Positions 3,274 through 60,052 of a DNA stretch of 64,000 bases are shown here, one piece after another (the stretch's first letter is position 1; the number at the start of each line of letters is the position of its first letter). The position numbers were made by a program, and so were the translations under genes. The notes under the pieces were generated by a model that saw only the letters and a list, made by a program, of their open reading frames with translations, had not been told where the DNA came from and did no database searches. This DNA is from Escherichia phage RB43, in sequence record NC_007023.1. One strand, given 5' to 3'.

Positions 3274-3282
3274 GGATAACCA

Positions 3283-4674: not shown

Positions 4675-4686
4675 AGGGGTTAATCC

Positions 4687-24875: not shown

Positions 24876-25796
24876 ATGAAAATTGATTACGAATTGGTAG
24901 AAGGGTTCCGTGCTCTGCCTACTAAAGAACAGAAAGGCGCACTGGCTGACTACGCTCAAAGCACCTTTGAAGTAAAATTGAACAAACAAAAATCATTCGA
25001 TAACATGCTGGCTGATCTGGAAGCTGCTGTACCAGCGGAAGAAGAAAAACCGGAACTGCTGATTGATTCCCCAGAATCCGCGATCGTTTCGTACACTGGT
25101 AGCGTTGCAATGGATGAACCTGTTGTTAACGCTCCGAACATTCCTGATGTTGTTGTCGATGTGTCGCAGGACTTTATGGATTACGTCAAAGACGTTGCGC
25201 CGGAAGTGGCTGATCAGATTAAATTAGTCCCTGATGTTGTTGTCGATGTGTCGCAGGACTTTATGGATTACGTCAAAGACGTTGCGCCGGAAGTGGCTGA
25301 TCAGATTAAATTAGTCCCTGATGTTGTTGTCGATGTGTCGCAGGACTTTATGGATTACGTCAAAGACGTTGCGCCGGAAGTGGCTGATCAGATTAAATTA
25401 GTCCCTGATGTTGTTGTCGATGTGTCGCAGGACTTTATGGATTACGTCAAAGACGTTGCGCCGGAAGTGGCTGATCAGATTAAATTAGTCCCTGATGTTG
25501 TAGAAGCGTCTGTAACCGCTTCTGACGAGTCCAAAGCTGATATGGCATGGTTGGACGGGTTTAGCCCTACAATCGTTCTGATGGGGCGTAGCGCTCGTTC
25601 TAACGGCTATTATACGTGTCCCTGGTGGATCTACGATTGGATTAAGAAAAATCCAGATTGGTACAAAGATCCTGACCAGTGTCCACACTACAGCGCACGG
25701 GATACCCTGAAATCGCTGGTGTACTACATCAAACGTGATGGTCAAGTTACTGTGCGTGAAACGCGCAACAGCAGTTTCGATACCTTCAAATTTTAG
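24876..25796 (+). CDS. Hoc-like capsid decoration protein with C-terminal capsid-binding domain and internal 4 x 29-aa perfect tandem repeat
   Basis: C-terminal ...YYTCPWWIYDWIKKNPDWYKDPD...RDGQVTVRETRN resembles T4 Hoc capsid-binding domain (AYIWCGWWVMDEI...GKDW...DVQESRNGY) as recalled; location next to uvsW as for T4 hoc; RBS GGAGA. Confidence 0.6.
   Translation: MKIDYELVEGFRALPTKEQKGALADYAQSTFEVKLNKQKSFDNMLADLEAAVPAEEEKPELLIDSPESAIVSYTGSVAMDEPVVNAPNIPDVVVDVSQDFMDYVKDVAPEVADQIKLVPDVVVDVSQDFMDYVKDVAPEVADQIKLVPDVVVDVSQDFMDYVKDVAPEVADQIKLVPDVVVDVSQDFMDYVKDVAPEVADQIKLVPDVVEASVTASDESKADMAWLDGFSPTIVLMGRSARSNGYYTCPWWIYDWIKKNPDWYKDPDQCPHYSARDTLKSLVYYIKRDGQVTVRETRNSSFDTFKF
25143..25501 (+). repeat. 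perfect 87-bp direct tandem repeat, 4 full copies plus 11-bp partial, in-frame inside the Hoc-like gene
   Basis: Copies start at 25143, 25230, 25317, 25404; each encodes PDVVVDVSQDFMDYVKDVAPEVADQIKLV. Confidence 0.95.
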
Positions 25797-33184: not shown

Positions 33185-33322
33185 AACTGTTCTCGAAAAC
33201 GCAAAAACGGCTACCCTGATCGGTAGCCGTGAACCCCCCGAACGTATAGCAAACATCGCTATCAAGATCGGACGGCATTAAGTGATCGAGACATTTTAGC
33301 TTATTCTGGTGGTGCTCCTGGA

Positions 33323-33757
33323 ATGGATAGCCATTTCTTGTTTGACTACGCACCAGAAAGACGGCGCATAATTCTCCCTGAAAACGGTTTTAACGGGCTT
33401 TACTCGAATGGTATGGATATCATCGACTATAACGAGTTAGACACGTACAAAGCCGCTGACGAAGCGAGAAAGGTAGCTGGGAACTTCGATTACCAAAATG
33501 AATGGACACAAAGGCGTTATGCGAGAAATGCAGTTCAGATATTGCGCGAAAATTTAGACAGCCCGACTGACTTCGTGTTATTTTGGGCTATCGAAAAGGA
33601 TTTTTGTGTCAAGGGCGGTACGGCTATCGCAACACGCCTTGCACGATTATACGGTGTTCCCAGTTTCAACCTGTGGAAAGAAAACGTATTGAATGATGTT
33701 TGTGATACTTTGGGGATTAATATCAAACCTCCAACTTTGGATTTTCTCTGGTGCTAA
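33323..33757 (+). CDS. SLOG/DprA-like Rossmann-fold protein, 3' portion (conserved 5' part lies in another frame from ATG 33174)
   Basis: ORF from ATG 33323; same frame is open from 33233 (..LAYSGGAPGMDSH); ATG 33174 ORF (MNFKTVLENAKTATLIGSREPP...) ends 33281; together resemble GSR...SGGAxGxD pattern; assignment tentative. Confidence 0.4.
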   Translation: MDSHFLFDYAPERRRIILPENGFNGLYSNGMDIIDYNELDTYKAADEARKVAGNFDYQNEWTQRRYARNAVQILRENLDSPTDFVLFWAIEKDFCVKGGTAIATRLARLYGVPSFNLWKENVLNDVCDTLGINIKPPTLDFLWC

Positions 33758-33823
33758 CTCCCGAACAATCACGTAATTACGAACGCCTCTCAGTTGAAGA
33801 GGCACTTAAAAAGGTTAAGAACA

Positions 33824-34027
33824 ATGGTAGAGATCAACGGAATCGGGGTGAACCCGAACGCATTAATTTCAAAGAACGATCCTCGTTGCGGTCGTAGTCC
33901 TACGCTGGCAGAACGTGCGCGTAAGCTGGTAGAGGAAACAAACGGCAAGATGTTTGAAACATGCCGTGAAGAAATCACCCGCAACATTCTAAGTTTTCCA
34001 ACAAAACAATCATACACGTTGATATGA
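33824..34027 (+). CDS. hypothetical protein
   Basis: 67 aa from ATG 33824 (ORF track has upstream alternative start 33794). Confidence 0.4.
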   Translation: MVEINGIGVNPNALISKNDPRCGRSPTLAERARKLVEETNGKMFETCREEITRNILSFPTKQSYTLI

Positions 34028-34245
34028 AACGTTTTGTTGGTACGACGATGGGGCAAGAATGCACCAAACGTGCGTTTGATATGATCGGGGAATGGCTGAC
34101 CGAAGAAGGTTTAACCTATGAAACCCAAGCGGTAAGAACGTCTGCCGCAATACAATATGCAATGAGTAACCGCCGTATTTCAGGAAACGCCCCTGTAACT
34201 GAAAGAACTGGGTATAGCGAATACACGTATTTCATCACCTGGTAA
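34024..34245 (+). CDS. hypothetical protein
   Basis: 73 aa ORF with ATGA overlap to upstream ORF. Confidence 0.45.
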   Translation: MKRFVGTTMGQECTKRAFDMIGEWLTEEGLTYETQAVRTSAAIQYAMSNRRISGNAPVTERTGYSEYTYFITW

Positions 34246-34264
34246 AAAAGTTTGAAATAGTTGT

Positions 34265-34291
34265 TGACGGGAGTTCTGATTATGATAAGAT
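34265..34291 (+). promoter_or_regulatory. putative sigma70-type early promoter
   Basis: TTGACG, 15-nt spacer, TAAGAT; same TTCTGAT..TAAGAT architecture recurs at 45641-45668. Confidence 0.35.
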
Positions 34292-34332
34292 AGCTCCCGT
34301 AGACAAGACAACTAACCCAGAAGGAAAACATC

Positions 34333-34590
34333 ATGGAAATCAAATTAATCCCTACTTGCGCTGGTTACTGCTTGGCACTGAACGGTGTAGCAAACAACGG
34401 CAAAGGCTTACGGGCTAACGTTGAAGCAATGCTGAATGAACTGGCGTTGCGGAGTGAACCTGGGATGCAGTATGAGTATGATGACGTTGCAACCAGCGTT
34501 AAAATCTCTAATCTGGTGATGAATGGTGTTGACTGTGCGGGTGGTGGGATTGCTACATCGACTATGCAGACAATCGGGTTTTCTTACTGA
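34333..34590 (+). CDS. hypothetical protein
   Basis: 85 aa ORF with RBS AAGGAAAAC. Confidence 0.5.
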   Translation: MEIKLIPTCAGYCLALNGVANNGKGLRANVEAMLNELALRSEPGMQYEYDDVATSVKISNLVMNGVDCAGGGIATSTMQTIGFSY

Positions 34591-34619
34591 CCAGCAACTA
34601 AGGAATGTTATGAAAGATT

Positions 34620-35020
34620 ATATTTCAGAAGCAGAAGCGCTTGAAGAAAGCGGTTTTCAAGTCACCATTGACGATGAAGAAGATGGTGGCTATGATGGCG
34701 GTGTTATGTGGGGGCTTAAACGTCCACAACGTAAAACCCCTGTTCAATATTCTGATGGTTCAGTAAGATACGAAACGGTTGTTAAAGAAGTAAACGGGCG
34801 CGTCATTACGTCCGAACGGCAGAAGGACATTAAACAATTGTATGATGTCGCAAAAGCCGCTAAAGTAGGAACCGAGATTGTTTGTCCGGTGTGCAAAGAG
34901 AAACACAAGAAGACGACCTATCATAAGGTGTTCTGCTCTAATGGCAAAAAATCCAGGAAAGACTGCAAGAGTAAATACTGGAACACGATTCATCCTGAAC
35001 GTTTGGATCGTATCTTTTAA
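34620..35020 (+). CDS. hypothetical protein with CxxC motif
   Basis: 133 aa from ATG 34620 (RBS AAGGAA); CPVCKEK...C; ORF track has longer GTG/TTG version from 34523. Confidence 0.5.
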
Positions 35021-35042
35021 TCAAAACGTGGAGTACGTTTAA

Positions 35043-36473
35043 ATGCAAACTTTTAATGAACTGAATAGCATCATCACCTCAACCGATTCCTACAAAGTGT
35101 CTCACTGGATGCAGTATCCGCAAGGCACTGATGCAGCGATGTTCTATATCGAATCTCGCGGTGGTAAATTTGATGAAGTAGTAACCGCTGGCGTTAACTA
35201 CGTTGCGCGGGTTCTCGCTGAACCAATTACCATGAAGCAGGTTGAGTTAGCGCGGGTACTTTACCGTAAACACTTCGGAAAAGAGATCTTTAACTACGAA
35301 GGGTGGAAAAAGATTGCTGAACTGGGTTACACCCCTGTAATTTTCCGTGCGATCCCAGAAGGTACGGTGTTCCGGGAAAAATGCCGTGCGACTGTGTACG
35401 CCGAAAACGAATTCTCGTGGCTGGCTGGGTGGCTGGAGACAATGACGATTCGCGGTATTTGGTATCCGTCATCTGTAGCAACGCTATCGCGTGAGTGTAA
35501 AAAGGTTCTGGCACACTACCTGGATATGACTTCTGACCTTACTGGCGAAGCATATAACATCACACTGGGTACACGTCTGCATGATTTTGGGGCGCGGGGC
35601 GCGACCTCTGCTGAATCTGCTGGCATTGGTGGGCTGGCACACCTTTATAACTTCATCGGCACTGATACCGTAGAAGGGATGATTATGGCAATCAGCCTCT
35701 TTGCGGATTATCAAACACTGTTTGATGAAGTTGAAAACGTAGAAGTAGCTGGGGTTTCCATCCCTGCTCGTGAGCATTCAACTACGATTTCCTACGGTAA
35801 AGAAAACGAAGACGAAGCATATAAAAACAGCATTGAAATGTTCGGTGATGGGTTCTACGCTTGCGTATACGATTCATGGGACTACAAAGCCGCTGTTGAC
35901 CGGATCGATAGTTATAAAGAGAAAATCATTGCATCTGGCGGTGTGTTGGTAGTGCGTCCAGACTCAGGGGATATGATAGACAACATCATGTACACCTTGC
36001 GCAAACTGGGGCAAATCTTCGGATATACTGTCAACTCCAAAGGGTACAAAGTTCTTCATAACTCTGTTCGTATCATCCAGGGTGACGAGATCCACGGGCC
36101 TGAAACAATCAACCGTGTATTAAGCTGGATGGAAGCGAACAAATGGTCGAGCGAAAACATTGCGTTCGGTATGGGTGGCGGTTTGCTGCAAGAAGTTACC
36201 CGCGATACCCAGAAATATGCTGAAAAACTTTGCGCTATCCGTATCAACGGTGTGTGGAAAGGCGTTTACAAATGCCCGAAAGGTTCGGAATGGAAAAAGA
36301 GCAAGAAAGGTTTATTGATGACCATCACTAACGGGATGGAATTCAAGACAATCGATTCTCTCGAAGAATCTATTCCTGCTGGGTGGTTTGATGCGATGGT
36401 AACTTATTATGACAATGGTTATCTGAACAAAACTGACACTTTAGGGGAAATTCGTGAGCGTAGCCGGATTTAA
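35043..36473 (+). CDS. nadV: nicotinamide phosphoribosyltransferase (NadV/NAMPT family)
   Basis: 476 aa; N-terminal ...TDSYKVSHW...YPQGT..., GTRLHDFGARGATS, IRPDSGD, RIIQGDEI, FGMGGGLLQ motifs typical of NAMPT/NAPRTase family. Confidence 0.8.
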   Translation: MQTFNELNSIITSTDSYKVSHWMQYPQGTDAAMFYIESRGGKFDEVVTAGVNYVARVLAEPITMKQVELARVLYRKHFGKEIFNYEGWKKIAELGYTPVIFRAIPEGTVFREKCRATVYAENEFSWLAGWLETMTIRGIWYPSSVATLSRECKKVLAHYLDMTSDLTGEAYNITLGTRLHDFGARGATSAESAGIGGLAHLYNFIGTDTVEGMIMAISLFADYQTLFDEVENVEVAGVSIPAREHSTTISYGKENEDEAYKNSIEMFGDGFYACVYDSWDYKAAVDRIDSYKEKIIASGGVLVVRPDSGDMIDNIMYTLRKLGQIFGYTVNSKGYKVLHNSVRIIQGDEIHGPETINRVLSWMEANKWSSENIAFGMGGGLLQEVTRDTQKYAEKLCAIRINGVWKGVYKCPKGSEWKKSKKGLLMTITNGMEFKTIDSLEESIPAGWFDAMVTYYDNGYLNKTDTLGEIRERSRI

Positions 36474-41347: not shown

Positions 41348-41674
41348 ATGTACTGGACAAAAGACAAATTCGTGTTTCGTGATGATGAAAGTTTTGGCAC
41401 GGTATACCGAAATTTAGCTTTGCGTGGTAGTGCTTTATCACCAAATCAACTATCGTCTGTTGTAATGCCGATAAAGGTTACTCACTGTGACCGTTTTGGT
41501 GTCAATGGTCTTGTTGATTCCGCTGGCACTTCCTGGTATTCGAACTGTTCTTATCTGTTAGACAACAACGATCGTGATCTCTTCAAGAAAGCTGTCCCAG
41601 TTGTTAAGAAGTCAAGAATCTGGATGTTCAAAACTTCTGGACTGTGCGCATCTTCTGGGACGAGTTTACGTTAA
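41348..41674 (+). CDS. hypothetical protein
   Basis: 108 aa from ATG 41348; 3' end overlaps next ORF by about 100 nt in a different frame. Confidence 0.45.
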   Translation: MYWTKDKFVFRDDESFGTVYRNLALRGSALSPNQLSSVVMPIKVTHCDRFGVNGLVDSAGTSWYSNCSYLLDNNDRDLFKKAVPVVKKSRIWMFKTSGLCASSGTSLR

Positions 41675-41825
41675 TGGAAAACTGGTCACAAAACAGGGTG
41701 ATCTTGAAAAATATCTTCGTAAACAACGTGAAGTTGCGTTGAAAGAAACAGAAAAAACAGTCAATCGGTTGACCAAATCGTTAGCCGAAGAAACAAAAAA
41801 TCTGAAACTGTTACGGGGTGAATGA
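41574..41825 (+). CDS. hypothetical protein (GTG start, no obvious RBS; may be continuation of previous ORF via +1 shift)
   Basis: 83-codon frame, protein-like from ...YVNGKLVTKQGDLEKYLRKQREV...; no in-frame ATG. Confidence 0.3.
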   Translation: MISSRKLSQLLRSQESGCSKLLDCAHLLGRVYVNGKLVTKQGDLEKYLRKQREVALKETEKTVNRLTKSLAEETKNLKLLRGE

Positions 41826-42064
41826 TGTTTCCATTAAAAGCGCGTGTTCGCAACAAAACAGGAACACAGGAATGGATGGAATGTATACGGGAAACAAAAC
41901 ATTTCTACATTTCTCAGGCAGTGGACAACAACGGAAAGAACATCCGTTATAATAAAGTTGGTGGTAAACGTGTGGGTATGGATCAATATCTCCAGGTTGG
42001 TACTGTTCGGCCTGTCAACGTTCCATTTGATTTAAGAATTCCTAACGGTAAACCTGTGATATGA
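41822..42064 (+). CDS. hypothetical protein
   Basis: 80 aa, ATGA overlaps with flanking ORFs. Confidence 0.5.
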   Translation: MMFPLKARVRNKTGTQEWMECIRETKHFYISQAVDNNGKNIRYNKVGGKRVGMDQYLQVGTVRPVNVPFDLRIPNGKPVI

Positions 42065-42570
42065 TCGGGAAAATCCTTGATATCCTGTTTCCCTCCCGTG
42101 TACGTGAGCGGGAGAAACAACAACAATTCGACGACATGTTAGAAGAAGTTATGTTCAATTCTTTTATGATGTGGAAGAAAAAACGCGAAGACGAGAAGCA
42201 CCCAAACGCACAAATGGCAAAGGGTGTTTCTAAATGCGCGGTTGGTCGTTACTGGGTTGAAAAAGATTATATTGATCTGATAGGCGCTATAGCTCCTGGG
42301 GTAACGCTGGAAGACTTTTCCCGTGCAACGGGGCGTTCGTATACTGGCTGCATCAATCGTCTGCGTATGCTGTCTATAGTGGTGCGTAGCAAGAATTACG
42401 GATATCGTGATGTTATCCGTCCGGTGATTCCGGTAAGCCGATTAAAAATTCACACGGCTAACGGAAAAAGACTTGACCTGACGGATGAAATGTGTAGAAT
42501 AGGCTATATCAGAGAGGGGAAAGTGTTAAAAGCCCCTGAATGGCTCACTAAACAATTTGAAATAAGGTAA
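42061..42570 (+). CDS. hypothetical protein
   Basis: 169 aa ORF, start overlapping previous stop. Confidence 0.5.
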   Translation: MIGKILDILFPSRVREREKQQQFDDMLEEVMFNSFMMWKKKREDEKHPNAQMAKGVSKCAVGRYWVEKDYIDLIGAIAPGVTLEDFSRATGRSYTGCINRLRMLSIVVRSKNYGYRDVIRPVIPVSRLKIHTANGKRLDLTDEMCRIGYIREGKVLKAPEWLTKQFEIR

Positions 42571-42574
42571 TCAC

Positions 42575-43167
42575 ATGATTAAGAAAATATTTTCGTTCCT
42601 CAACAACAAAGTAGAAACCGTCATCGAGCAAAACACCTCCCCAGAGGACGCATGGCGTAGCGCTGCACGTATCCTGATCAAGAGATTGACCGTCTGCAAC
42701 ATACCCGCATCACGGCTGCTCATGAGATCGCGAAACTAAGCAAAAAAGTTGTTGAGCACAAAGCTCTGCATGAAAGCAAAGAAGCAGAAATCAAAAAACT
42801 GCTGGCTGCTTCTCAGGAAGTTTCAAACAGTCATTACATTCTGGCACTGCAACACCGCAATATCTGGCAGGGGTTGAAAGAAAAGATCAATGAACTGGCA
42901 GAAATGAACAAACAGATCGATCTGTCTGTTGTTGAACTCGATAAAAAACTGGCTGATGTCAAAATGAACCTGGAAATTATCGAACTGAACAAACAGACTG
43001 AAAGCCTGGGTCTGACTGTGCCGGAAGATGTGATTGCAAGCGTGGGTCATACCTCCGTGAACGTCGATACTATCGTAACGAAGATTGATGTTCTGCTGGG
43101 TGGTAAGAACGCCGCCTCCGTGACTTCCGCTGATGTAAGTGCATACATCGAAGCCCTGAAAGCATAA
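42575..43167 (+). pseudogene. coiled-coil protein gene with apparent -1 frameshift about 35 codons in (5' part 42575-42739 in one frame, remainder open 42661-43167 in the -1 frame)
   Basis: ATG 42575 ORF stops at 42739; -1 frame has no start until TTG 42874 yet encodes protein-like helix ...QEIDRLQHTRITAAHEIAKLSKKVVEH... from 42661. Confidence 0.4.
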
Positions 43168-43173
43168 TGAGGA

Positions 43174-43193
43174 AGGGGCGCAAGCCCCTTTTT
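43174..43193 (+). terminator. rho-independent terminator
   Basis: AGGGGCGCAAGCCCCT hairpin followed by TTTTT. Confidence 0.65.
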
Positions 43194-43197
43194 GCCT

Positions 43198-43395
43198 ATG
43201 TATTATATTGAGCGTGATGAATTCGATAATTACTTTGTTGTTGATACTGTCCGTATGATTCATGAACCTCTGCCGTTGACTTGGTACTATTTGACCGAAT
43301 CTAAAAGGAAGAGATCGCGAATCAAGTTTACAGAGATGCGCTGTATGCGAAAACCGATATCAAAAGCGCGGCAATACAATCCAAATGTGAATTGA
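43198..43395 (+). CDS. hypothetical protein
   Basis: 65 aa from ATG 43198. Confidence 0.4.
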   Translation: MYYIERDEFDNYFVVDTVRMIHEPLPLTWYYLTESKRKRSRIKFTEMRCMRKPISKARQYNPNVN

Positions 43396-44117
43396 TGAAA
43401 GCCCAAACAACAATCAATGTTAGTAGACTTCTTGTTGATGGCAATCAACCGTTTGGTTATAATTGTATAGAAGATGCTTATACAAAAGAGGATGAAAAAA
43501 TGATGTGGGAACCTGGATTATCTGAACCGAAAAAGAAATTGTCCTATTCTTCTTGGAAAGAAAAGTACAAAGAACCTTTACAACACCTTCCGTTCAAAGA
43601 AAAGATCTTTGAGTTGCTTAATCCACATACGTATTCTTCTTCGTCATGGGTGTATGAAGGTCCGATCCTCGTCGGTGGATTTCTGGGGTATGTTGTTGAA
43701 ACATATAAATTGAAAGATTCTCTTGATGCTATCATGAGTTCTCCGTACATTGAAGATGTTAGTATTCCATACATCGCTACATCACAATACAGCGCACCGG
43801 GTAATATATCTTCGGATCGTTTGCAAGTTATCGCCTCTGATAATAAGTTTAAGTTTTCTGATGTATCGAGAGGTAGCAGAACTGTACTGATTGCTCTTGA
43901 CATAACAACTTCTGATCAGGACAAAGTAAACCTTATCATTGCATGTGATAGTGTAACTGACGTTACTCAATATTTTGGCGATAATTTCGAACGCAGACTG
44001 AAAGCAAAACAGCTTGAAAAGTTCATTCATAGCTGTAAAAAGAACGTGATGGAAAAATATGATCCGTCACTATCATACACGAAAATTGATGATGACCTGG
44101 TAGGTGAATTATGTTAA
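43395..44117 (+). CDS. hypothetical protein (noticeably AT-rich relative to neighbours)
   Basis: 240 aa from ATG 43395; Lys/Ser-rich; composition differs from flanking genes. Confidence 0.5.
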   Translation: MKAQTTINVSRLLVDGNQPFGYNCIEDAYTKEDEKMMWEPGLSEPKKKLSYSSWKEKYKEPLQHLPFKEKIFELLNPHTYSSSSWVYEGPILVGGFLGYVVETYKLKDSLDAIMSSPYIEDVSIPYIATSQYSAPGNISSDRLQVIASDNKFKFSDVSRGSRTVLIALDITTSDQDKVNLIIACDSVTDVTQYFGDNFERRLKAKQLEKFIHSCKKNVMEKYDPSLSYTKIDDDLVGELC

Positions 44118-44392
44118 TGAATAGTGCTCAATGCAAAGCCCTGAACTTTTTGATCCATGAACTGATTGAATGCGACATTCCTTTTGAGTTCGTTGATCCA
44201 ATCAATTCAGAACACCGCGTTTCTCTTTTCTGGGCTTCTGGTGATAGCAGTATCGACGCGGTGAATAACATCGTTGAACGCGCACAGAAGGATAATGTTA
44301 TTGTGATGATTGGTAGCGTTAACGCCTCCACCTGGAACAATGCTGATGCGTATTTCATCGGATACAAAAAACCGTTGACAGTGAAAGCATGA
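44111..44392 (+). CDS. hypothetical protein
   Basis: 93 aa ORF overlapping previous stop. Confidence 0.5.
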   Translation: MLMNSAQCKALNFLIHELIECDIPFEFVDPINSEHRVSLFWASGDSSIDAVNNIVERAQKDNVIVMIGSVNASTWNNADAYFIGYKKPLTVKA

Positions 44393-44435
44393 TCGCGTAA
44401 TATGCCCCTGTAGACAACAATATAGGGGCTAAATC

Positions 44436-44627
44436 ATGAAAATCAAAAATACTGCTACTGAAAATCTTTGCAACGAAATCGCTGCGACCTACTGGAAAGA
44501 AGGTCATCCAAAGGCAATGAAGGATTTTCAAAAGTGGTGTGACACCCAGAAATTATCAAAATGGGAATACATCGTAATCGTGGAACGGATCAGAGAACTG
44601 ATCCTTGATAAGAAAGGTATAAAATGA
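44436..44627 (+). CDS. hypothetical protein
   Basis: 63 aa ORF preceded by a GC hairpin (44404-44431). Confidence 0.45.
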   Translation: MKIKNTATENLCNEIAATYWKEGHPKAMKDFQKWCDTQKLSKWEYIVIVERIRELILDKKGIK

Positions 44628-45154
44628 TTCAGCTTACATCATACACCAACGCGATCAACAGCCTGTTCCCAGAAGGGACAGAAGCACGGCTTAATTTACA
44701 GGCTGCTGTGATCAAAAACATCGTTGATAGCGTTGTCGGTAAGAAGGTGACGGAAGAAATCGATAACTGTATTGTCACCCATGTTAGCGCGATGATGCCA
44801 CCAAAGCATGAGATCGAAAAGATTGTTCAAAATCAATTTGCCGATTACATTCAGAAACGCTACACATACAGCAATGTGTTTGATGCTAATTACAGTGGCA
44901 TTCGTCAGATTAAAGACGTGATCACCGAAAACGTTAAACAGCAATGCGCTAACCTGATTGAATCTATCAAACTTGATGCGATCGACAGCGCAAGCAAAAA
45001 CCTCAAAGAAGGCGAAGAAGCGTTTATTGCTCGTGTAACCAAAAATCTAGAAGTGACGGTTCGTAAAGAAATCATCGCTCGCGTGAACACCCAGTTCCCG
45101 CAAATCATCGACGAAGCAATCAAAGCCCGTCTGTTCCCAGAGGATAAAGGCTGA
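44624..45154 (+). CDS. hypothetical protein
   Basis: 176 aa ORF, ATGA overlaps on both sides. Confidence 0.5.
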   Translation: MIQLTSYTNAINSLFPEGTEARLNLQAAVIKNIVDSVVGKKVTEEIDNCIVTHVSAMMPPKHEIEKIVQNQFADYIQKRYTYSNVFDANYSGIRQIKDVITENVKQQCANLIESIKLDAIDSASKNLKEGEEAFIARVTKNLEVTVRKEIIARVNTQFPQIIDEAIKARLFPEDKG

Positions 45155-45600
45155 TGAACTTTGACCGCATCTATAACATGGATGTGGTCAACGGTAAAGG
45201 AATCCGTGTGGTGTTGTTTGTAACCGGATGCAATCATAAGTGTGATGGTTGCTACAACAAAAGCACATGGAATCCACGCAACGGTAAACCGTATACCGAA
45301 GAGACTGAAAACGAGTTGATCAGACTCCTTTCAAATCCTCATGTGGACGGATTGACGCTTACAGGTGGCGATCCGTTTTACCGCACCAATCATCCTGTAC
45401 TGTTAAAACTGCTCCAGCGCGTCCGTAACGAGTTGCCTGGTAAGAATGTATGGGTTTGGACGGGGTACACCCTCGAAGCCTTACAGAGTGATACAGAACG
45501 TTGTAAGCTACTTCCTTTTATCGATGTTCTGATCGATGGGAAGTATGAAAAGATTTACCGACTAAGAAACCGTTTCGCGGTTCGGACAATCAGCGATTGA
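45154..45600 (+). CDS. nrdG: anaerobic ribonucleotide reductase activating protein NrdG (radical SAM)
   Basis: 148 aa; ...DRIY..D.VNG.G.RVVLFVTGC.HKC.GCYN.STWN.RNG......LTLTGGDP...WTGY...IDGKYEK... matches T4 NrdG with CxxxCxxC cluster motif. Confidence 0.9.
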   Translation: MNFDRIYNMDVVNGKGIRVVLFVTGCNHKCDGCYNKSTWNPRNGKPYTEETENELIRLLSNPHVDGLTLTGGDPFYRTNHPVLLKLLQRVRNELPGKNVWVWTGYTLEALQSDTERCKLLPFIDVLIDGKYEKIYRLRNRFAVRTISD

Positions 45601-53094: not shown

Positions 53095-54681
53095 ATGGCG
53101 AATAACGAATTCATGGCGTTATTCGGCCCTGATAGCTTTACGGCGAATGTGTTTTCAGAAGCAAACGCCGTAAAATATCGATTGGTTGTGCGTGGGGCTA
53201 ATTTAAGCTCCACACTCAACGCAATTGAGGTTTCTATCAATGGGGCTGATATTATAAACAGAAACACACAACGAGATCGCGGAATTAACCTGGCGATTAT
53301 TGATGGAACAACGTTAGCATTACTGGATTATAAGACATTTGATATGTATGGTGATCCTACTACGAACGGGAACGCGCTTAGGGACTATTTGGGTTCTCTT
53401 CCAGCGAATCGCATTGTGTGTTTTTATAGTTACGACGCAATAGGAAGTAACGCCAACTTTACCGCAATTATGCGTAAAATTGGTTCTGTTGCATGGCCGG
53501 AAGAACGTTTTTTCTCAACCGATGATCGTCGTCGTTCGTCGTATTCTGCCATATATTCATCAACCATGAAGAAAATCTGTATGGAAAACTTCGTGGGTGG
53601 ATCTGGCAGTATATCACAGGATGATACGAGAAGTTTTGTTGAAGTTGTGTTTGACGAATTCAGCGACATCGGCGTTACTGGTATTCCTGAACGTATGGTC
53701 GATGATGTACAAACGTATCAGAACAGCGGTTCATTATATGGATATCATGGGTATGGTTCATGGAATATAGGAACCGATGTTTTTCGTGGGGATATATTCA
53801 AAGTAACTGGTGATCTGTATTGTTCACAAGAACTTCGTGACGCTGGCGGGGATACGTATCTGTATATCTGGACAGAAACTGCTGGTGCGCAATGGGTAGC
53901 GTCTTCTCTGTTGCGTACAACAAACTTAACTCCTGATACGTGGCATTCTTTGTCTATATATTTCACGATCCCGCAAGGCACAGAAAATGTCAAGATGGGT
54001 TGTCAAGTATATCATTATCCGTCAACCGTAAACGTAGGTCTTTCTCAATGTCGAAATGTACAAATCAGTAAAGTACCGCGTGAAGAAGTAAACAGAAACG
54101 GTGCTGCAATTGGTGTGAACGGTGTGCGTATGCAGACGCTTTCCGAAGTTGACACAACCGGAACTGAAAACCCGATTGAACAGTTACTTTCATTGCCTGT
54201 ATCACCTGCTGGAACTCCGAGCAATAAAACGATTGTTTCGCATAACTTCACAGAACTTGATTATCTTGTTGCAGATCCAACGGAATATACATCAACCGAT
54301 ACAACCCAATATCTTGTTAAAGAGTGGGCTAATAAACAATATGACTTTGCAAAAGTGTCATTGAGTAGTGTCGGGGCTAAACCTGGTGATGTCATCCGTA
54401 TTGCGGGACAGCTTAAACGCGATGCGACCGCGATTGCCAACAATAAACGAGCATTCATAATCATGCAGTTCCTTGATGCGAATAATCAGTATATTGGCGC
54501 ACCACAACCAGTTATTATCCAGGATGTAAGCACAGTACCAAACGTGTATACATTCTATAAAAGCGAAGGTGTCGTTCCTGCTGGTGCTGTGAACTTTGAT
54601 TTCGGTTTTTATCGTTATCCGAGCAACACAAGCACAGGATCGGTGTCAGTTAAAGACGTTAAATTGTCTATCGTTCGTTAA
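53095..54681 (+). CDS. 35: long tail fibre hinge connector, gp35-like (by position)
   Basis: 528 aa ORF between gp34 and distal-fibre genes; no strong motif recognised; assignment by synteny. Confidence 0.55.
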   Translation: MANNEFMALFGPDSFTANVFSEANAVKYRLVVRGANLSSTLNAIEVSINGADIINRNTQRDRGINLAIIDGTTLALLDYKTFDMYGDPTTNGNALRDYLGSLPANRIVCFYSYDAIGSNANFTAIMRKIGSVAWPEERFFSTDDRRRSSYSAIYSSTMKKICMENFVGGSGSISQDDTRSFVEVVFDEFSDIGVTGIPERMVDDVQTYQNSGSLYGYHGYGSWNIGTDVFRGDIFKVTGDLYCSQELRDAGGDTYLYIWTETAGAQWVASSLLRTTNLTPDTWHSLSIYFTIPQGTENVKMGCQVYHYPSTVNVGLSQCRNVQISKVPREEVNRNGAAIGVNGVRMQTLSEVDTTGTENPIEQLLSLPVSPAGTPSNKTIVSHNFTELDYLVADPTEYTSTDTTQYLVKEWANKQYDFAKVSLSSVGAKPGDVIRIAGQLKRDATAIANNKRAFIIMQFLDANNQYIGAPQPVIIQDVSTVPNVYTFYKSEGVVPAGAVNFDFGFYRYPSNTSTGSVSVKDVKLSIVR

Positions 54682-54700
54682 GGGGCTTCGGCCCCTTTTT
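54682..54700 (+). terminator. rho-independent terminator
   Basis: GGGGCTTCGGCCCC hairpin followed by TTTTTC; followed by CATAAATA late-promoter-like box. Confidence 0.6.
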
Positions 54701-54773
54701 CATAAATACAGTCATTATAGGAGAATTTTATGGCTGATTTGAAATTAGGCACAACGTTAGGTGGTGCTGCTAT

Positions 54774-57002
54774 TTGGAGTGCTTCGAATCTCCGTTATTG
54801 CCGTCAGGTGGACAAATAACGTATAAAGGCTGGCGTATCTATACCGAAAATGATCGCCCGACAGCGGAAGATATAGGGGCGTTGTCTCTTGCTAATGGTG
54901 GTACTGTTAACAATGATACGACATTCACGAAAAATATAACCGTAGGCGTTAATGCTGTTGCGGGTGCATTGTTTTCTAGATCGTACATCGATATTACTCG
55001 CGCCGGAAGTGAACCAAACATTGTTTTTCGTCGTTCTGATGTTACTACTACGCCGACGACAGAACAAGCCCTTTTAATACTTAATGCTATGAATGGGGCT
55101 AACGTTACTGCGGGTACGTTTAATATTCATGCGCGTACTGATGGCGGGAACAAAGTTTATATTACTGCGTATAAATCGGGATCACAAAATACATCATTAA
55201 CGCTAGATTCGCAACTTCAACAGGTAACGGTAGAACAAGGCACTTTCCGTGTCACTGGAAATACTGTTCTTGCTGGTGCAACTGCAACCACGTTAAACGT
55301 TACTGGGGCGTTGACTGCACAAACGGTTACTCCGGCGAACTGGCAAAATCACGATGTTCGTTATATGACGGGTATTCCGACCAACATGCAGGGAAATAGC
55401 CTAAGCGCTGCTGTTGTTACCGAAAAGAATGATGTTCTTTCCGTAAACGGTAACTTGGTTGATGGTCCTTATGGCGATAATACCTACGTGGGCCAGGTGG
55501 TAAACTATCGCCGCACGTCGAATGCGAGCAACTCGATCACTCAGTTCTTCCTTGATGGTACTGCTTTCCATATCCGTACAGGTTCTGGATCTCCTGGTGC
55601 TTGGTCTTGGACGGGTGGAGGTGCTAACGGTTGGCGTAAAGTGTATGATGAAAGTCACAAACCTACTCCGGCAGAAATCGGTGCATTGAAAAATACTACC
55701 GATACATTGAACGGTGAATTGGGTGTTATCGGTGATGTTTCTTTAAAATCACCTACAGGTCGTCATATTAAATTCGTGTATACGAAAAATGATGGTACTC
55801 AGATTGTTGATGGGTTTATCTACAAAGACGGACCTGATGCTGGTAATCGTCGTTCCGGTATTCGCATTAACTGTTATACGCCGAATAAAGAAACTGGTAA
55901 TGGGGAGTTTTCCGGTGAATTCATTTTCAACGAAAATGGTAGCTTTATTCTTCCTCCTGGCGGCACAATATATCAGGAAGGTATAACACCAGGTCTTTAC
56001 GCAAACGTTATATTAAGTGCCGCTGCTGCTGGTACTACATCATACCTTCGTAAATTCCGAGGTGGTGGCCCTGATACAATATGGCATGAGGCAGTTCGAT
56101 CTAACGTATACGCTTTGGGAACTGGCGCGACATATTCAAATGAAGTAATGACTCTCGATGACACTGGTAATCTGTCTATCAAAGGAACCCCGTCAACATC
56201 AACGAACGTTTTCCTGGATAGTGACGCAAAATCTGTTATTTGGTTTAGACATTCCGGCGGTGCGGAAAAAGGCGTTGTGTGGGCAGAGAGTGATGGTAAA
56301 TTAAAATTACGCGCAAATGCTGGCGGTTCTGCTACTTATGAGTTTTATGCTGGTATGATACACTCACAATACCCCGTATCAGGTACAGATCGCGGTATTA
56401 TTCGCGGTACTCCTGATGGGGGTGGTTGGGATCAATGGCGTGAACGTTCTGCTGCTGTATCTGTTGATGTTCCCGGTGTCAATAATAGCGCATACAGTAT
56501 CTGGAAAGCAACTTCATGGAATAACACCTATGTTGCTGCAATTGGATGTTCATATGCCCGAACTTTACACCAGGCGCCGGCCCGTGTTCGTCTGGTTCTG
56601 CAAAGTTCTGTTGCTTTCTACTTCGATGGTGATGGTAGCTTTAGTACAAGTACAGGGAACATCACGGCAGGTAATAGTGGTTACTTTAACGATGTGTATA
56701 TTCGTTCTGATGAAAAATTGAAAAGCAATTTCAATAAGATTGAAAACGCATTGGATAAGGTTGAACTGTTGAATGGTTTGACTTATGATAAAGCAAGCTA
56801 TATCGGTGGCGAAACTGTTAAGCGCGAAGCTGGTTTGATCGCACAGGAACTGCAAAAGGTATTACCGGAAGCCGTATCTGTTGGTAAGGATACCAAAGAA
56901 AACGAAGTGCTTGTTATTTCGCCAACTGCAACTATTGCATTACTGGTCGAAGCAATCAAAGAACTGCGTGAAGAAGTAAGGGAACTCAAATCCCGACAAT
57001 AA
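54774..57002 (+). CDS. long tail fibre distal subunit paralogue A (gp36/gp37-like) with C-terminal intramolecular chaperone domain; conserved N-terminus is in another frame from ATG 54730
   Basis: ORF track start is TTG 54774; upstream ATG 54730 frame encodes MADLKLGTTLGGAAIWSASN (gp36-type N-terminus) then stops 54819; body has GG.PDTIWHEAVR and C-terminal ...DVYIRSDEKLKSNF...GREAGLIAQELQKVLPEAV (S74-type chaperone). Confidence 0.7.
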   Translation: MECFESPLLPSGGQITYKGWRIYTENDRPTAEDIGALSLANGGTVNNDTTFTKNITVGVNAVAGALFSRSYIDITRAGSEPNIVFRRSDVTTTPTTEQALLILNAMNGANVTAGTFNIHARTDGGNKVYITAYKSGSQNTSLTLDSQLQQVTVEQGTFRVTGNTVLAGATATTLNVTGALTAQTVTPANWQNHDVRYMTGIPTNMQGNSLSAAVVTEKNDVLSVNGNLVDGPYGDNTYVGQVVNYRRTSNASNSITQFFLDGTAFHIRTGSGSPGAWSWTGGGANGWRKVYDESHKPTPAEIGALKNTTDTLNGELGVIGDVSLKSPTGRHIKFVYTKNDGTQIVDGFIYKDGPDAGNRRSGIRINCYTPNKETGNGEFSGEFIFNENGSFILPPGGTIYQEGITPGLYANVILSAAAAGTTSYLRKFRGGGPDTIWHEAVRSNVYALGTGATYSNEVMTLDDTGNLSIKGTPSTSTNVFLDSDAKSVIWFRHSGGAEKGVVWAESDGKLKLRANAGGSATYEFYAGMIHSQYPVSGTDRGIIRGTPDGGGWDQWRERSAAVSVDVPGVNNSAYSIWKATSWNNTYVAAIGCSYARTLHQAPARVRLVLQSSVAFYFDGDGSFSTSTGNITAGNSGYFNDVYIRSDEKLKSNFNKIENALDKVELLNGLTYDKASYIGGETVKREAGLIAQELQKVLPEAVSVGKDTKENEVLVISPTATIALLVEAIKELREEVRELKSRQ

Positions 57003-57003
57003 G

Positions 57004-57030
57004 AAAAGCCCTTCGGGGCTTTTTCTTTTT
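57004..57030 (+). terminator. rho-independent terminator
   Basis: AGCCCTTCGGGGCT hairpin followed by TTTTCTTTTT. Confidence 0.65.
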
Positions 57031-57037
57031 ATAAATA
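57030..57037 (+). promoter_or_regulatory. T4-type late promoter -10 box (TATAAATA) upstream of second distal-fibre gene
   Basis: Exact TATAAATA 27 nt upstream of ATG 57064. Confidence 0.5.
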
Positions 57038-57063
57038 TCATAAAAGCATTTGAGGATCTAATA

Positions 57064-59502
57064 ATGGCAGATTTAAAATCCGGTACTACCATAGGCGGTA
57101 ATACTATCTGGAGTCAGGCTAATTTGCCTTTACTCCCTACTGGAAACACACTAACGTATAAAGGCTTCAAAGTCTATACGGAAAATGATAAGCCTACAAA
57201 AGCTGAAATAGGATTAGGTAACGTTACCAACGACGCACAGGTCAAAAAATCCGGCGATGAAATGACGGGTGATCTGACACTAAAGAACAATACTCAGTTA
57301 ACGGTTCCTCGCCGTATTAACCTGATTGCTGATACTGCGGGGAATGCTCCTTATCTGTTAACTACTCGTTCAGATAACAACGCGGTTACAGATCCGTTCC
57401 CGTCACAGCATACTCGCACGTTTACTTTGTTTGTCAACACAAAATCGAATACTTCCGATCCTTTTGGTGGTGCTAACCTTGCTGCTCTATTATCGCATCA
57501 GTCAACTACTGGGGCAGGTTCTATCGAACTGCAAGCATATGATGCACCAAACAAGACAACAGGCGCTACGGGAATTCTACGCGCTCAGATTGGGCTTAAT
57601 GGGTGGGATGGTTCAATTAACCTTTCCGGTGCTTCGTTAAACGTTGGTATGAGTACAACGGTCAGTGGTAACTTAACAGGAACCCAACTGATCACAAAAG
57701 GCGACGGAAACCGTAACGTCGAATTCCGTGATGCTGGCGGTAACGAATTAGCAATGATATTTGCTGATACTGGTAAAAACTTATATGTTCGTTCAGGTGG
57801 TTCTTATGTAACACGTTTCGCTGCTGATGGTACTCTTATTCTGGCAAACGGTTTGACCGCACCACGTCAAATTTTTGTTAATGGTGCTGGATTGCCAGCA
57901 AACAACAGCTTGATTCGACTTGATACAAGCACTGATGGAAACGCCTCTGGTGACGGCGCAACGCATCTTGGTGTGAAAGCTGATGATGGGAAATTTTATC
58001 ATTATTTCCGTGGTGCTGGTACGATGTTCATCGACGTGAAAGGTGGAATATCTTCTTCAACCCCGTTGTATATGAATGGAGTTGATCAGGCATTACCCAA
58101 AATTGAAATGTTGTCAACTGGTGCGGCTGGCGGTAAAAACTTACTACGTCGATTCCGTGGTGGTCTTCCTGATATTATATGGCATGAAACTGTTCAGCAG
58201 GGTGAATATAAGCTGATGACGGGTAACACCGATAGTGAAATGCAACTATGGGTTAGTGCTAGTGGTGCTGGTCGAGGTGGTGCAATTTACGGTGGTACGT
58301 TTACGGCTGATCGCGGTAATGATGGATTCAAGATCCGTTATAAACCTGCAACAGAATCAGCAATGTTCCAGATATGGAACAGAGATACGAGTGTATTGAA
58401 CTCTTATTTCGGATACGGGTCAAGTAATCAGGCAACAATTAACCTGTATAACCGATTAGGTGATATTGCTGTTTCTACTCCGAACGCTGCGTTCCGGTTA
58501 GATAATACTTTATTAACGCTTGGTAGTTCATCGTCAGCACAAGCCAGTAGTCAAACATTCTATATCCAAAACTGGGGTAATTCTGGTCGTCCTGCTGTGT
58601 TTGAAGTACATGATGATACGGGTTATCATTTTTATTCACAACGAATGCCTAATGGAAACGTAGAATTTCAAACTTCTGGCAATCTGACCGTCAGTAACGG
58701 CGCATACATTTATGGCGGCAATGGCCTAGAAATTCGTTCTAATGGAAACCGTCATGTATGGTTTAAAGATAACGCAGGTAGTGAAAAGGTTGTTATTTAC
58801 GCCGAAGATGATGGCGGGTTGAAAATCCGTACTACGAGTCAGCAATATTCAACTCGTTTTGGTGACGGCATGATTCTAACTACAGGTGCTGCAACCACTG
58901 GAGGTGATAAAGGTTTACTCCGTGGTACTGTTCAGGGTGGTGCGTGGGTCGCATGGCGTGACCGTGCTGCTGGGTTGTTGGTGGATTGTCCTAACTCCAG
59001 AAACGAAGCATACAGCATCTGGAAAGCTACACACTGGGGCGATCAGCATATTGCCGCAATGGATGTCTATGCGGGTGGCGGCAATCCAGTTGTAGTTATG
59101 CACGTTGGTGGTGCTGATTTTTCCTTCGACAATGGTGGTCAATTCAAAGCCAGTGGTTATATTTACTCAGGGGCACATGGTGATTTTAACGATGTGTATA
59201 TTCGTTCTGATATCAGGCTGAAATCTAACCTAGTTGAACTGAAAGATGCACTGAGTAAAGTCGAACAGCTTAAAGGTTATATCTACGATAAGAAACTGAA
59301 AGTCGAAGATGATGAACCTAATGGTCGTGAAGCGGGTATTATTGCTCAGGATCTTCAAAAGGTTTTACCGGAAGCAGTAAGAGAAAACGAAGAAACCGGA
59401 ATGTTGACGATCTCCCCGTCAAGTGTTAACGCGCTTCTGATTACGGCAATCAATGAATTGCGTGAACGTCTGGAAGCAATCGAACGGAAAATAGGGGCGT
59501 AA
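57064..59502 (+). CDS. long tail fibre distal subunit paralogue B (gp36/gp37-like) with C-terminal intramolecular chaperone domain
   Basis: 812 aa; N-terminus MADLKSGTTIGGNTIWSQANLPLLPTGNTLTYKGFKVYTEN matches T4 gp36 N-terminus; GGKNLLRRFRGGLPDIIWHETVQ and ETVFEVHDDTGYHFYSQR like T4 gp37; C-terminal DVYIRSDIRLKSN...GREAGIIAQDLQKVLPEAV chaperone domain. Confidence 0.8.
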   Translation: MADLKSGTTIGGNTIWSQANLPLLPTGNTLTYKGFKVYTENDKPTKAEIGLGNVTNDAQVKKSGDEMTGDLTLKNNTQLTVPRRINLIADTAGNAPYLLTTRSDNNAVTDPFPSQHTRTFTLFVNTKSNTSDPFGGANLAALLSHQSTTGAGSIELQAYDAPNKTTGATGILRAQIGLNGWDGSINLSGASLNVGMSTTVSGNLTGTQLITKGDGNRNVEFRDAGGNELAMIFADTGKNLYVRSGGSYVTRFAADGTLILANGLTAPRQIFVNGAGLPANNSLIRLDTSTDGNASGDGATHLGVKADDGKFYHYFRGAGTMFIDVKGGISSSTPLYMNGVDQALPKIEMLSTGAAGGKNLLRRFRGGLPDIIWHETVQQGEYKLMTGNTDSEMQLWVSASGAGRGGAIYGGTFTADRGNDGFKIRYKPATESAMFQIWNRDTSVLNSYFGYGSSNQATINLYNRLGDIAVSTPNAAFRLDNTLLTLGSSSSAQASSQTFYIQNWGNSGRPAVFEVHDDTGYHFYSQRMPNGNVEFQTSGNLTVSNGAYIYGGNGLEIRSNGNRHVWFKDNAGSEKVVIYAEDDGGLKIRTTSQQYSTRFGDGMILTTGAATTGGDKGLLRGTVQGGAWVAWRDRAAGLLVDCPNSRNEAYSIWKATHWGDQHIAAMDVYAGGGNPVVVMHVGGADFSFDNGGQFKASGYIYSGAHGDFNDVYIRSDIRLKSNLVELKDALSKVEQLKGYIYDKKLKVEDDEPNGREAGIIAQDLQKVLPEAVRENEETGMLTISPSSVNALLITAINELRERLEAIERKIGA

Positions 59503-59513
59503 TGCCCCTCTTT
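59494..59513 (+). terminator. hairpin terminator overlapping stop
   Basis: GGGGCGTAATGCCCC followed by TCTTT. Confidence 0.45.
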
Positions 59514-59527
59514 AAAGAGGTAAAATT

Positions 59528-60052
59528 ATGGCAATTGTTGGAGTACCCGGATGGATCGGGTCGTCTGCGGTAGCAGAAACAGGACAGCGTTGGATGTCTG
59601 CGGCGGGTAGCGCTGTTCGAATTGGTGCGCCTTTCTGGATGTCCCAAATGGCAAACCAATCAGTATATAATATTTCAATACCAATATTCGAACGATATTA
59701 TAAAGGTATTCGTTATCGTGGTTGTTGGAATACTGGATGGAATCTCCCTTTATCTAAACCTGGTTGGAACGCTACTCCTGGTGGTAGTTTTAACGGGCTG
59801 GCTTACGGGACTTGTGTTGCAGTGCAAAACTATCTCGATGGTGAATATAGCGTATTAACTATTCAAAGTGGTCCTGCTGCAAACTTTCGACTCACTACTG
59901 ATGACGGTGCGGTGTTTAACTTTATTGATACCGGACGATATGACGCAGGATATCGAAACTACAAAATCGATCCTAGTCAACATGTGGCATGGTTCGACTA
60001 CCTTAATGCTCGTATAGGACAAACAAGACAAGGACTAGTTGCTATAAGATAA
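59528..60052 (+). CDS. 38: gp38-like tail fibre adhesin/assembly protein
   Basis: 174 aa; N-terminus MAIVGVPGWIGSSAVAETGQRWMSAAGSAVRIG matches T4 gp38 N-terminus; no glycine-rich segments. Confidence 0.8.
   Translation: MAIVGVPGWIGSSAVAETGQRWMSAAGSAVRIGAPFWMSQMANQSVYNISIPIFERYYKGIRYRGCWNTGWNLPLSKPGWNATPGGSFNGLAYGTCVAVQNYLDGEYSVLTIQSGPAANFRLTTDDGAVFNFIDTGRYDAGYRNYKIDPSQHVAWFDYLNARIGQTRQGLVAIR

What the first reader, a model, noticed from the sequence alone, without database searches (positions are those of the whole stretch)
54730..54820. Distal tail-fibre paralogue A: conserved N-terminus displaced by a single-base frame change at a short C-run
ATG 54730 encodes MADLKLGTTLGGAAIWSASN in frame, matching paralogue B, but the frame then reads LRYCRQVDK and stops at 54819. 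The continuation expected from the paralogue (PLLPSGGQITYKGWRIYTEN) is in the -1 frame from 54792. The sequence reads AAT CTC CGT TAT where AAT CTC CCG TTA (N L P L) is expected, i.e. CC where CCC would restore the frame. Either the gene is a recent pseudogene or expressed only from TTG 54774 without its attachment domain, or this is a homopolymer miscall.
Basis: seen in the sequence. Interest (0 to 1): 0.5.

Follow-up and report, generated by a model that had tools for sequence, protein, structure and literature searches.

The report
Sequencing error splits RB43 tail-fibre gene
The broken start of this phage tail-fibre gene is almost certainly a one-base sequencing error in the original phage RB43 genome record, because two other RB43 sequences and all close relatives have the gene intact, so it is a database defect and not biology.

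Summary
The frame break is really in the window. ATG 54730 reads MADLKLGTTLGGAAIWSASNLRYCRQVDK and stops at 54817-54819, and the rest of the gene runs in the frame of TTG 54774..57002. The missing base is a T, not a C. The window has AAT C-TC CG, whereas two other RB43 records (RB43-GVA and AY266307) and phages Xman and GuL6 all have AAT CTT CCG. The same gene carries three extra bases (56542, 56557, 56577) that scramble 12 codons, and it has no substitutions against the other RB43 records. Across the 64 kb the window has 23 single-base indels against RB43-GVA, all inside genes and none shared by an alignable relative. They break 13 genes, including the holin at codon 4. Sixteen of 19 substitutions are also private to the window. 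The 742-aa TTG-start ORF is exactly YP_239256.1 / AAX78802.1 of phage RB43, so the public annotation worked around the error. The real gene is the 756-aa gp 36-37.1. It has a gp36-like N-terminal module and a C-terminal Peptidase_S74 chaperone domain. Verdict: an artefact of this record, not a pseudogene or a recoding site. Interest is low.

The parts
54682..54700 (+). Terminator-like hairpin GGGGC-TTCG-GCCCC followed by a T-run, directly after the stop of the gp35-like gene (53095..54681)
   Evidence: Read directly from the sequence. The same layout follows paralogue A, ahead of paralogue B.
54701..54708 (+). CATAAATA, one mismatch from the T4 late-promoter box TATAAATA
   Evidence: Read directly. 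Paralogue B has an exact TATAAATA at 57030-57037 in the equivalent place. Function is inferred, not shown.
54719..54723 (+). Shine-Dalgarno AGGAG, 6 nt upstream of ATG 54730
   Evidence: Read directly. It marks ATG 54730, not TTG 54774, as the designed start.
54730..54819 (+). True start of gene 36-37.1. The first 21 codons (MADLKLGTTLGGAAIWSASNL) are correct, then 8 out-of-frame codons and a stop.
   Evidence: identical prefix of 21 aa with the RB43-GVA protein.
54790..54792 (+). Site of the missing base: the window has C-T-C where all comparators have C-T-T-C (one T of a TT pair is absent)
54774..57002 (+). 742-aa ORF as annotated in the public RB43 genome (YP_239256.1 / AAX78802.1). It is the body of gene 36-37.1 read from a spurious TTG start.
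   Evidence: and the exact-sequence look-up.
56542..56577 (+). Three private extra bases (T56542, C56557, C56577, net +3) that scramble 12 codons. The true reading AAMDVHMPNFTPGAARV matches AAMDV in paralogue B.
56706..56876 (+). Peptidase_S74 intramolecular chaperone domain (residues 659-715 of the restored 756-aa protein), including ...DVYIRSDEKLKSN...
   Evidence: Pfam PF13884, 54.6 bits against a cut-off of 22, E 1.3e-14. Window coordinates were computed from the residue numbers.
57064..59502 (+). Paralogue B (gp 36-37.2, 812 aa), identical to RB43-GVA
59528..60052 (+). gp38 adhesin gene (Gp38_N domain). Codon 100 is wild-type CAA, as in AY266307.
   Evidence: PMC3157838.

Best explanation
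The window is the originally deposited genome of coliphage RB43. The frame break at 54790-54792 is a base-calling or assembly error in that record: one T of a TT pair was dropped. The real gene, gp 36-37.1, is an intact 756-codon long-tail-fibre distal-subunit gene that starts at ATG 54730. It sits behind its own terminator, late-promoter-like box and Shine-Dalgarno sequence. Its first ~58 residues are the gp36-type N-terminal module, which by inference joins the distal half-fibre to the gp35 hinge. Its C-terminus is a Peptidase_S74 intramolecular chaperone domain, which by inference from that family aids trimer folding and is then cleaved off. Shown here: the indel is private to this record and the gene is intact everywhere else. 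Inferred: the cause is technical and not a mutation in the sequenced stock.
For: (1): against RB43-GVA (L001), AY266307 (L002), Xman (L003) and GuL6 (L004), the window differs from the two RB43 records in this gene only by four single-base indels (-T near 54791; +T 56542, +C 56557, +C 56577) and by no substitution. (2): AY266307, a separately deposited RB43 record that shares the window's wild-type g38 codon 100 (CAA; GVA has AAA), agrees with GVA at all four indels and at the holin indel 60101. (3): the window has 23 single-base indels against GVA over 64 kb, and at every one where GuL6 or Xman can be aligned the relatives agree with GVA. All 23 lie inside GVA CDSs. (4): these indels break 13 genes when read from the GVA start, including holin t after codon 3, NrdG and ten others. 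Three clusters of three nearby indels restore the frame after scrambling a short stretch (tail sheath 12993/12999/13059, nicotinamide PRTase 35368/35375/35386, fibre A 56542/56557/56577). (5): 16 of 19 substitutions are also private to the window. Only 2 are GVA-derived, and one of them is at the g38 residue-100 host-range site reported in PMC3157838. (6): seven other members of the 90% cluster are 756 aa with an identical N-terminus (MADLKLGTTLGGAAIWSASNLPLLPSGG...). The window's 742-aa version is exactly YP_239256.1. (7): the expression signals are placed for ATG 54730.
Against: No reads or traces are available, so the error is inferred by comparison and not observed. RB43 has two distal-fibre paralogues, and the literature (PMC3157838) says it is unclear whether both are used, so loss of paralogue A might be tolerated. 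The sequenced stock was not the GVA lineage, so private real mutations are possible in principle.
Confidence: 0.93

Rival explanations
1. A genuine mutation in the sequenced RB43 stock: paralogue A is a recent pseudogene, or is made only from TTG 54774 without the first 21 residues of its attachment module, and the phage relies on paralogue B.
For: Two paralogues exist, and PMC3157838 states that the fibre may be built from only one expressed version, so A could be dispensable. The stock differs from RB43-GVA at the g38 host-range codon.
Against: AY266307, which has the same wild-type g38 codon, has the gene intact. Four indels with zero substitutions in 2.3 kb is not a mutational spectrum. 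The same record has 19 more private indels, all in coding sequence, that break 12 other genes including the holin, which a plaque-forming phage should not tolerate together. The triplets of compensating indels within 35-70 nt look like poor read stretches.
Confidence: 0.05
2. A programmed -1 ribosomal frameshift or transcriptional slippage joins the 54730 frame to the 54774 frame, so one full-length protein is made from two frames.
For: The two frames overlap by 46 nt (54774-54819), and the joined product would be the conserved protein.
Against: The overlap (TGG AGT GCT TCG AAT CTC CGT TAT TGC CGT CAG GTG GAC AAA TAA) has no X XXY YYZ slippery heptamer and no homopolymer run. Protein homology switches frame exactly at codons 21/22, as a one-base deletion would produce. 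No relative or other RB43 record keeps a two-frame arrangement. IME-CF2's breaks are at other positions.
Confidence: 0.01
3. The window is correct, and the other records (RB43-GVA, AY266307, Xman, GuL6) carry the errors.
For: None beyond the formal symmetry of a pairwise difference.
Against: Four separate records and four metagenomic proteins agree with each other. Their reading gives an uninterrupted conserved protein, and AAMDV matches paralogue B where the window reads AAIGC.
Confidence: 0.005

Closest known systems
RB43 gp 36-37.1 (AAP04368.1 in AY266307; CCL97738.1 in RB43-GVA HE981739; UniRef Q858B6)
   Same: This is the same gene of the same phage. It is identical at the nucleotide level apart from the four indels and lies in the same locus order: gp34-like, gp35-like, 36-37.1, 36-37.2, gp38, holin t.
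   Different: The window's copy lacks one T near 54791 and has three extra bases at 56542-56577. Its annotated product (YP_239256.1, 742 aa) therefore loses the first 21 residues, starts with the spurious MECFES, and has 13 scrambled residues in place of 12.
T4-type gp36 (RefSeq name: hinge connector of long tail fiber protein distal connector), N-terminal module
   Same: The first 58 residues match the N-terminus of gp36-type genes in 1440 phage records, typically at about 50% identity over the full 58 aa. The AY266307 record carries the same note.
   Different: In RB43 this module is fused to a long gp37-like shaft with a Peptidase_S74 C-terminus, and the fused gene is duplicated. T4 has separate genes 36 and 37 (the T4 arrangement is from general knowledge; the RB43 duplication is stated in PMC3157838).
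Peptidase_S74 intramolecular chaperone domain (PF13884; known from phage endosialidases and other tail-fibre proteins)
   Same: There is a clear Pfam match in both paralogues (54.6 and 59.5 bits against a cut-off of 22), and the segment DVYIRSD.(K/R)LKSN is conserved between them.
   Different: Autoproteolytic release was not tested here. A T2/T6-type gp38 adhesin gene follows the two paralogues in the locus.
Frame-broken fibre gene in Citrobacter phage IME-CF2 (NC_029013)
   Same: The orthologue is annotated in pieces in a public record (three CDSs; a 408-aa cluster member).
   Different: The breaks lie at other positions, so nothing is conserved. I did not examine whether those breaks are errors too.

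Membership tests
Record-level sequencing or base-calling error | The difference is private to one record and absent from separately deposited sequences of the same strain | tested here: met
   RB43-GVA and AY266307 both read AATCTTCCG and lack the three extra bases.
Record-level sequencing or base-calling error | The same kind of difference recurs across the record, without regard to coding sequence or gene importance | tested here: met
   There are 23 private single-base indels in 64 kb, all inside CDSs, and 13 genes are broken including holin t. 16 of 19 substitutions are also private.
Record-level sequencing or base-calling error | Reads or traces show low quality or conflicting calls at the site | not testable with these tools
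   No reads or traces are available.
Recent pseudogene | The disruption is present in the strain itself, so it is reproduced in separate sequencing of that strain | tested here: not met
   The gene is intact in two other RB43 records, one of which has the same wild-type g38 allele as the window. The exact stock was not resequenced.
Recent pseudogene | Relaxed selection leaves substitutions alongside indels | tested here: not met
   0 substitutions against 4 indels in 2.3 kb.
Programmed -1 ribosomal frameshift | A slippery heptamer X XXY YYZ (or a slippage-prone run) lies in the frame overlap | tested here: not met
   None is present in 54774-54819 (read directly).
Programmed -1 ribosomal frameshift | The two-frame arrangement is conserved in relatives | tested here: not met
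   All relatives have a single frame.
T4-type long tail fibre distal subunit (gp36/gp37 class) | A gp36-type N-terminal module | tested here: met
   tblastn of residues 1-58 finds 1440 phage records, annotated as gp36 / distal hinge connector in T4-like phages.
T4-type long tail fibre distal subunit (gp36/gp37 class) | Position in the long-tail-fibre locus between the gp35-like gene and gp38 / holin t | tested here: met
   Annotated synteny in GuL6, Xman and AY266307. Gp38_N is found in the ORF at 59528..60052.
T4-type long tail fibre distal subunit (gp36/gp37 class) | Incorporated as a trimer in the virion fibre | not testable with these tools
   This needs virion proteomics or structural work. 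PMC3157838 says the use of the two paralogues is unresolved.
Peptidase_S74 intramolecular chaperone | A Pfam PF13884 match above the gathering score | tested here: met
   54.6 bits (paralogue A, restored) and 59.5 bits (paralogue B) against a cut-off of 22.
Peptidase_S74 intramolecular chaperone | Autoproteolytic cleavage after trimer folding | not testable with these tools
   A biochemical property. Only the conserved ...YIRSD.(K/R)LK... segment was seen.

The most novel reading that the evidence does not exclude
The stock of RB43 used for the 180.5-kb genome really carried the frameshift in paralogue A, alone or with the downstream scramble. A viable RB43 would then make its long tail fibres with paralogue B only, which would be natural evidence that the duplicated distal-fibre gene is dispensable on the propagation host.
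Probability: 0.04. Interest if true: 0.25.

Novelty: not a real feature. Interest (0 to 1): 0.05.

Why it matters
There is no biological novelty here. The practical value is curation. The RefSeq/GenBank protein YP_239256.1 / AAX78802.1 (UniRef Q56BB9) for this RB43 fibre gene lacks the first 21 residues of its gp36-type N-terminal module, starts with six spurious residues, and has 13 scrambled residues near position 590. Anyone modelling or engineering RB43-type fibres should use AAP04368.1 / CCL97738.1 (Q858B6) instead. The same record misreports at least 12 other genes in this 64-kb stretch, including the holin and NrdG. Apparent pseudogenes or odd start codons in this genome should therefore not be read as biology without checking RB43-GVA.

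Tried and rejected
(2) Programmed frameshifting is rejected, because there is no slippery site and no conservation. (3) Errors in the comparator records are rejected by the agreement of four records and four metagenomic proteins, and by the match to paralogue B. (4) I checked whether the differences reflect real divergence between RB43 stocks. Outgroup polarisation shows only 2 GVA-derived substitutions, one of them at the published g38 host-range site, while 16 substitutions and all 23 indels are private to the window. (5) A full-text search for 'RB43-GVA' found one paper (PMC3157838). It explains the GVA and TLS stocks and the g38 mutation but does not discuss errors in the genome record. 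(6) Exact TATAAATA boxes are not clearly enriched in the window (7 found, 3.1 expected, 4 of 100 shuffles reach 7), so the late-promoter assignment rests on position only.

Full report
**1. The observation**

- ATG 54730 is preceded by AGGAG at 54719-54723 and reads MADLKLGTTLGGAAIWSASNLRYCRQVDK, stopping at 54817-54819.
- The long ORF 54774..57002 (TTG start, 742 aa) lies in the -1 frame and reads ...SPLLPSGGQITYKGWRIYTEN....
- Paralogue B (57064..59502, 812 aa) starts MADLKSGTTIGGNTIWSQANLPLLPTGNTLTYKGFKVYTEN, so the N-terminus of paralogue A is split over two frames exactly between codons 21 and 22.
- The similarity is far beyond chance. The restored A protein matches B with BLASTP E 4e-20 at the N-terminus and 2e-59 at the C-terminus.

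**2. Identity of the window**

- Megablast of 54500-57100 against phage records gives 99.8% identity to Pseudotevenvirus RB43: RB43-GVA in HE981739 and HE858210, and the 5.5-kb fragment AY266307.
- The 742-aa TTG-start translation is an exact match to NCBI proteins AAX78802.1 / YP_239256.1, 'gp36 small distal tail fiber subunit [Escherichia phage RB43]', on a 180,500-bp contig.
- The window is therefore the original RB43 genome record, and its annotators dealt with the frame break by starting the gene at TTG 54774.

**3. What differs**

- In the other RB43 records the gene is one CDS of 2271 nt (756 codons), annotated 'gp 36-37.1' in AY266307. Xman and GuL6 have the same.
- Against RB43-GVA and AY266307, the window's gene has no substitutions and four single-base indels.
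- The first indel is a missing T: the window reads AATC-TCCG and the others read AATCTTCCG. Either repair encodes N-L-P-L.
- The other three are extra bases at 56542 (T), 56557 (C) and 56577 (C). They add 3 nt in total, so the frame is regained after the true MDVHMPNFTPGA is replaced by IGCSYARTLHQAP.
- The true reading AAMDV matches AAMDV in paralogue B, and the window's AAIGC does not.

**4. Is it specific to this gene?**

No. Over the full 64 kb the window differs from RB43-GVA by 23 single-base indels, 19 substitutions and a tandem-repeat copy-number difference.
- At every indel where GuL6 or Xman can be aligned, those relatives agree with GVA and not with the window.
- All 23 indels lie inside annotated GVA genes.
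- Read from the GVA start codons, 13 genes in the window are frame-broken. These include holin t after codon 3, NrdG, the last codons of the gp24-like vertex protein, and ten others.
- Three clusters of three nearby indels restore the frame after a short scramble: tail sheath 12993/12999/13059, nicotinamide phosphoribosyltransferase 35368/35375/35386, and fibre A 56542/56557/56577.
- Of the 19 substitutions, 16 are private to the window. Two are GVA-derived, one is ambiguous and one could not be aligned.
- One of the GVA-derived substitutions is g38 codon 100 (CAA in the window and AY266307, AAA in GVA). This is the site that Trojet et al. (PMC3157838) report as the host-range mutation of RB43-GVA.
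- Real divergence between RB43 stocks is therefore about two substitutions in 64 kb. Roughly 39 further differences are peculiar to this record.

**5. Independent check within the same lineage**

AY266307 shares the wild-type g38 allele with the window. It nevertheless agrees with GVA at all four indels of gene 36-37.1 and at the holin indel 60101. The intact gene is therefore not a peculiarity of the Geneva lineage.

**6. Interpretation**

The best-supported reading is that these are technical errors in the deposited record.
- Four indels with no substitutions is not a mutational spectrum.
- Real indels would be strongly depleted in coding sequence.
- A plaque-forming phage should not tolerate simultaneous frameshifts in the holin and a dozen other genes.
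- Triplets of compensating indels within 35-70 nt are what poor read stretches give.

I put this at 0.93. A real mutation in the sequenced stock (0.05) cannot be formally excluded without reads, and paralogue A might be dispensable, since PMC3157838 notes that the fibre may use only one paralogue. Programmed frameshifting (0.01) fails both tests: there is no slippery heptamer in 54774-54819 and no relative keeps two frames. IME-CF2's orthologue is annotated in three pieces, but the breaks lie at other positions.

**7. What the gene really is**

The restored protein is 756 aa.
- Its first 58 residues match gp36-type N-termini in 1440 phage records, at about 50% identity in T4-like phages, where the gene is annotated as the distal hinge connector.
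- Its C-terminus (residues 659-715, window 56706-56876) is a Peptidase_S74 intramolecular chaperone domain at 54.6 bits against a cut-off of 22. Paralogue B has the same domain.
- The gene has its own upstream signals: a hairpin with T-run (54682-54700), CATAAATA (54701-54708), AGGAG, then ATG. The same layout precedes paralogue B, which has an exact TATAAATA at 57030.
- By inference from these families, the N-terminal module joins the distal half-fibre to the gp35-like hinge, and the S74 domain aids trimer folding and is then cleaved off. Neither step was tested here.

**8. Novelty and verdict**

The gene is already known, and the frame break is not a real biological feature. The only value is curation. 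YP_239256.1 / Q56BB9 is truncated and locally scrambled, and at least 12 other genes in this part of the record are affected. RB43-GVA or AY266307 should be used instead. Interest is 0.05.

Noticed in passing
window 25143-25501 (inside ORF 24876..25796, +): There is a perfect 87-bp tandem repeat of 4.1 copies (100% matches). It is in frame, giving four 29-aa repeats (PDVVVDVSQDFMDYVKDVAPEVADQIKLV) in a 306-aa protein. The syntenic gene is annotated as minor capsid protein / prohead protease inhibitor in GuL6 and Xman. RB43-GVA has only about 1.1 copies (CDS 660 nt), and GuL6 and Xman have genes of similar size (660 and 654 nt). This is either a real repeat expansion in this stock or an assembly artefact of this record.
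   Followed up: partly
window 12993, 12999, 13059, 21825, 30393, 33274, 34018, 34541, 35368, 35375, 35386, 41605, 41629, 42679, 43302, 45547, 60101, 60864, 62700: Nineteen further single-base indels are private to this record relative to RB43-GVA, GuL6 and Xman. They frame-break 12 other genes, including holin t at codon 4 (60101), NrdG (45547) and the end of the gp24-like vertex gene (21825). They also locally scramble the tail sheath and the nicotinamide phosphoribosyltransferase. The missing bases come in runs of the same letter: six T in 33274-35386 and five A in 41605-45547.
   Followed up: yes
window 44556-44642: Six substitutions fall within 87 nt, all private to the window (GVA, GuL6 and Xman agree with each other). 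This looks like another low-quality stretch of the record.
   Followed up: partly
window 59825 (g38 codon 100, gene 59528..60052): The window and AY266307 have CAA (Gln), and RB43-GVA (HE981739) has AAA (Lys). Trojet et al. (PMC3157838) describe the RB43-GVA host-range change at residue 100 as Q to R. The position agrees, but the amino acid in the deposited GVA genome is K, not R.
   Followed up: partly
window 53095-54681 (+), gp35-like tail-fibre hinge gene: Residues 62-132 match Pfam PF15711 ILEI (interleukin-like EMT inducer domain), E 1.3e-11, 45.3 bits against a cut-off of 27. This is an unexpected domain label for a phage fibre hinge protein.
   Followed up: no
window 56706-56876 and 59206-59382, with 59528-60052: Both distal-fibre paralogues end in a Peptidase_S74 intramolecular chaperone domain, yet a T2/T6-type gp38 adhesin gene (Gp38_N, E 1e-21) follows them. 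How a gp38 adhesin docks on a fibre whose C-terminus is presumably cleaved off, and which of the two paralogues it serves, is not explained. PMC3157838 also leaves the role of the duplication open.
   Followed up: no
L011 3231-5502 (Citrobacter phage IME-CF2, NC_029013): The orthologue of this fibre gene is annotated as three separate CDSs (3231-3440, 3590-4246, 4276-5502). The breaks lie at positions unrelated to the RB43 break, so this may be another record with frame errors in the same gene.
   Followed up: no
L002 3606-3626 and 3918-5059 (AY266307) = window 58299-58319 and 58611-59752: AY266307 has its own differences from the window within paralogue B and g38: a cluster of 4 substitutions plus a compensating indel pair at 58299-58319, and 6 more substitutions. 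RB43-GVA agrees with the window there (one search lists no differences in that range), so these appear private to AY266307.
   Followed up: partly
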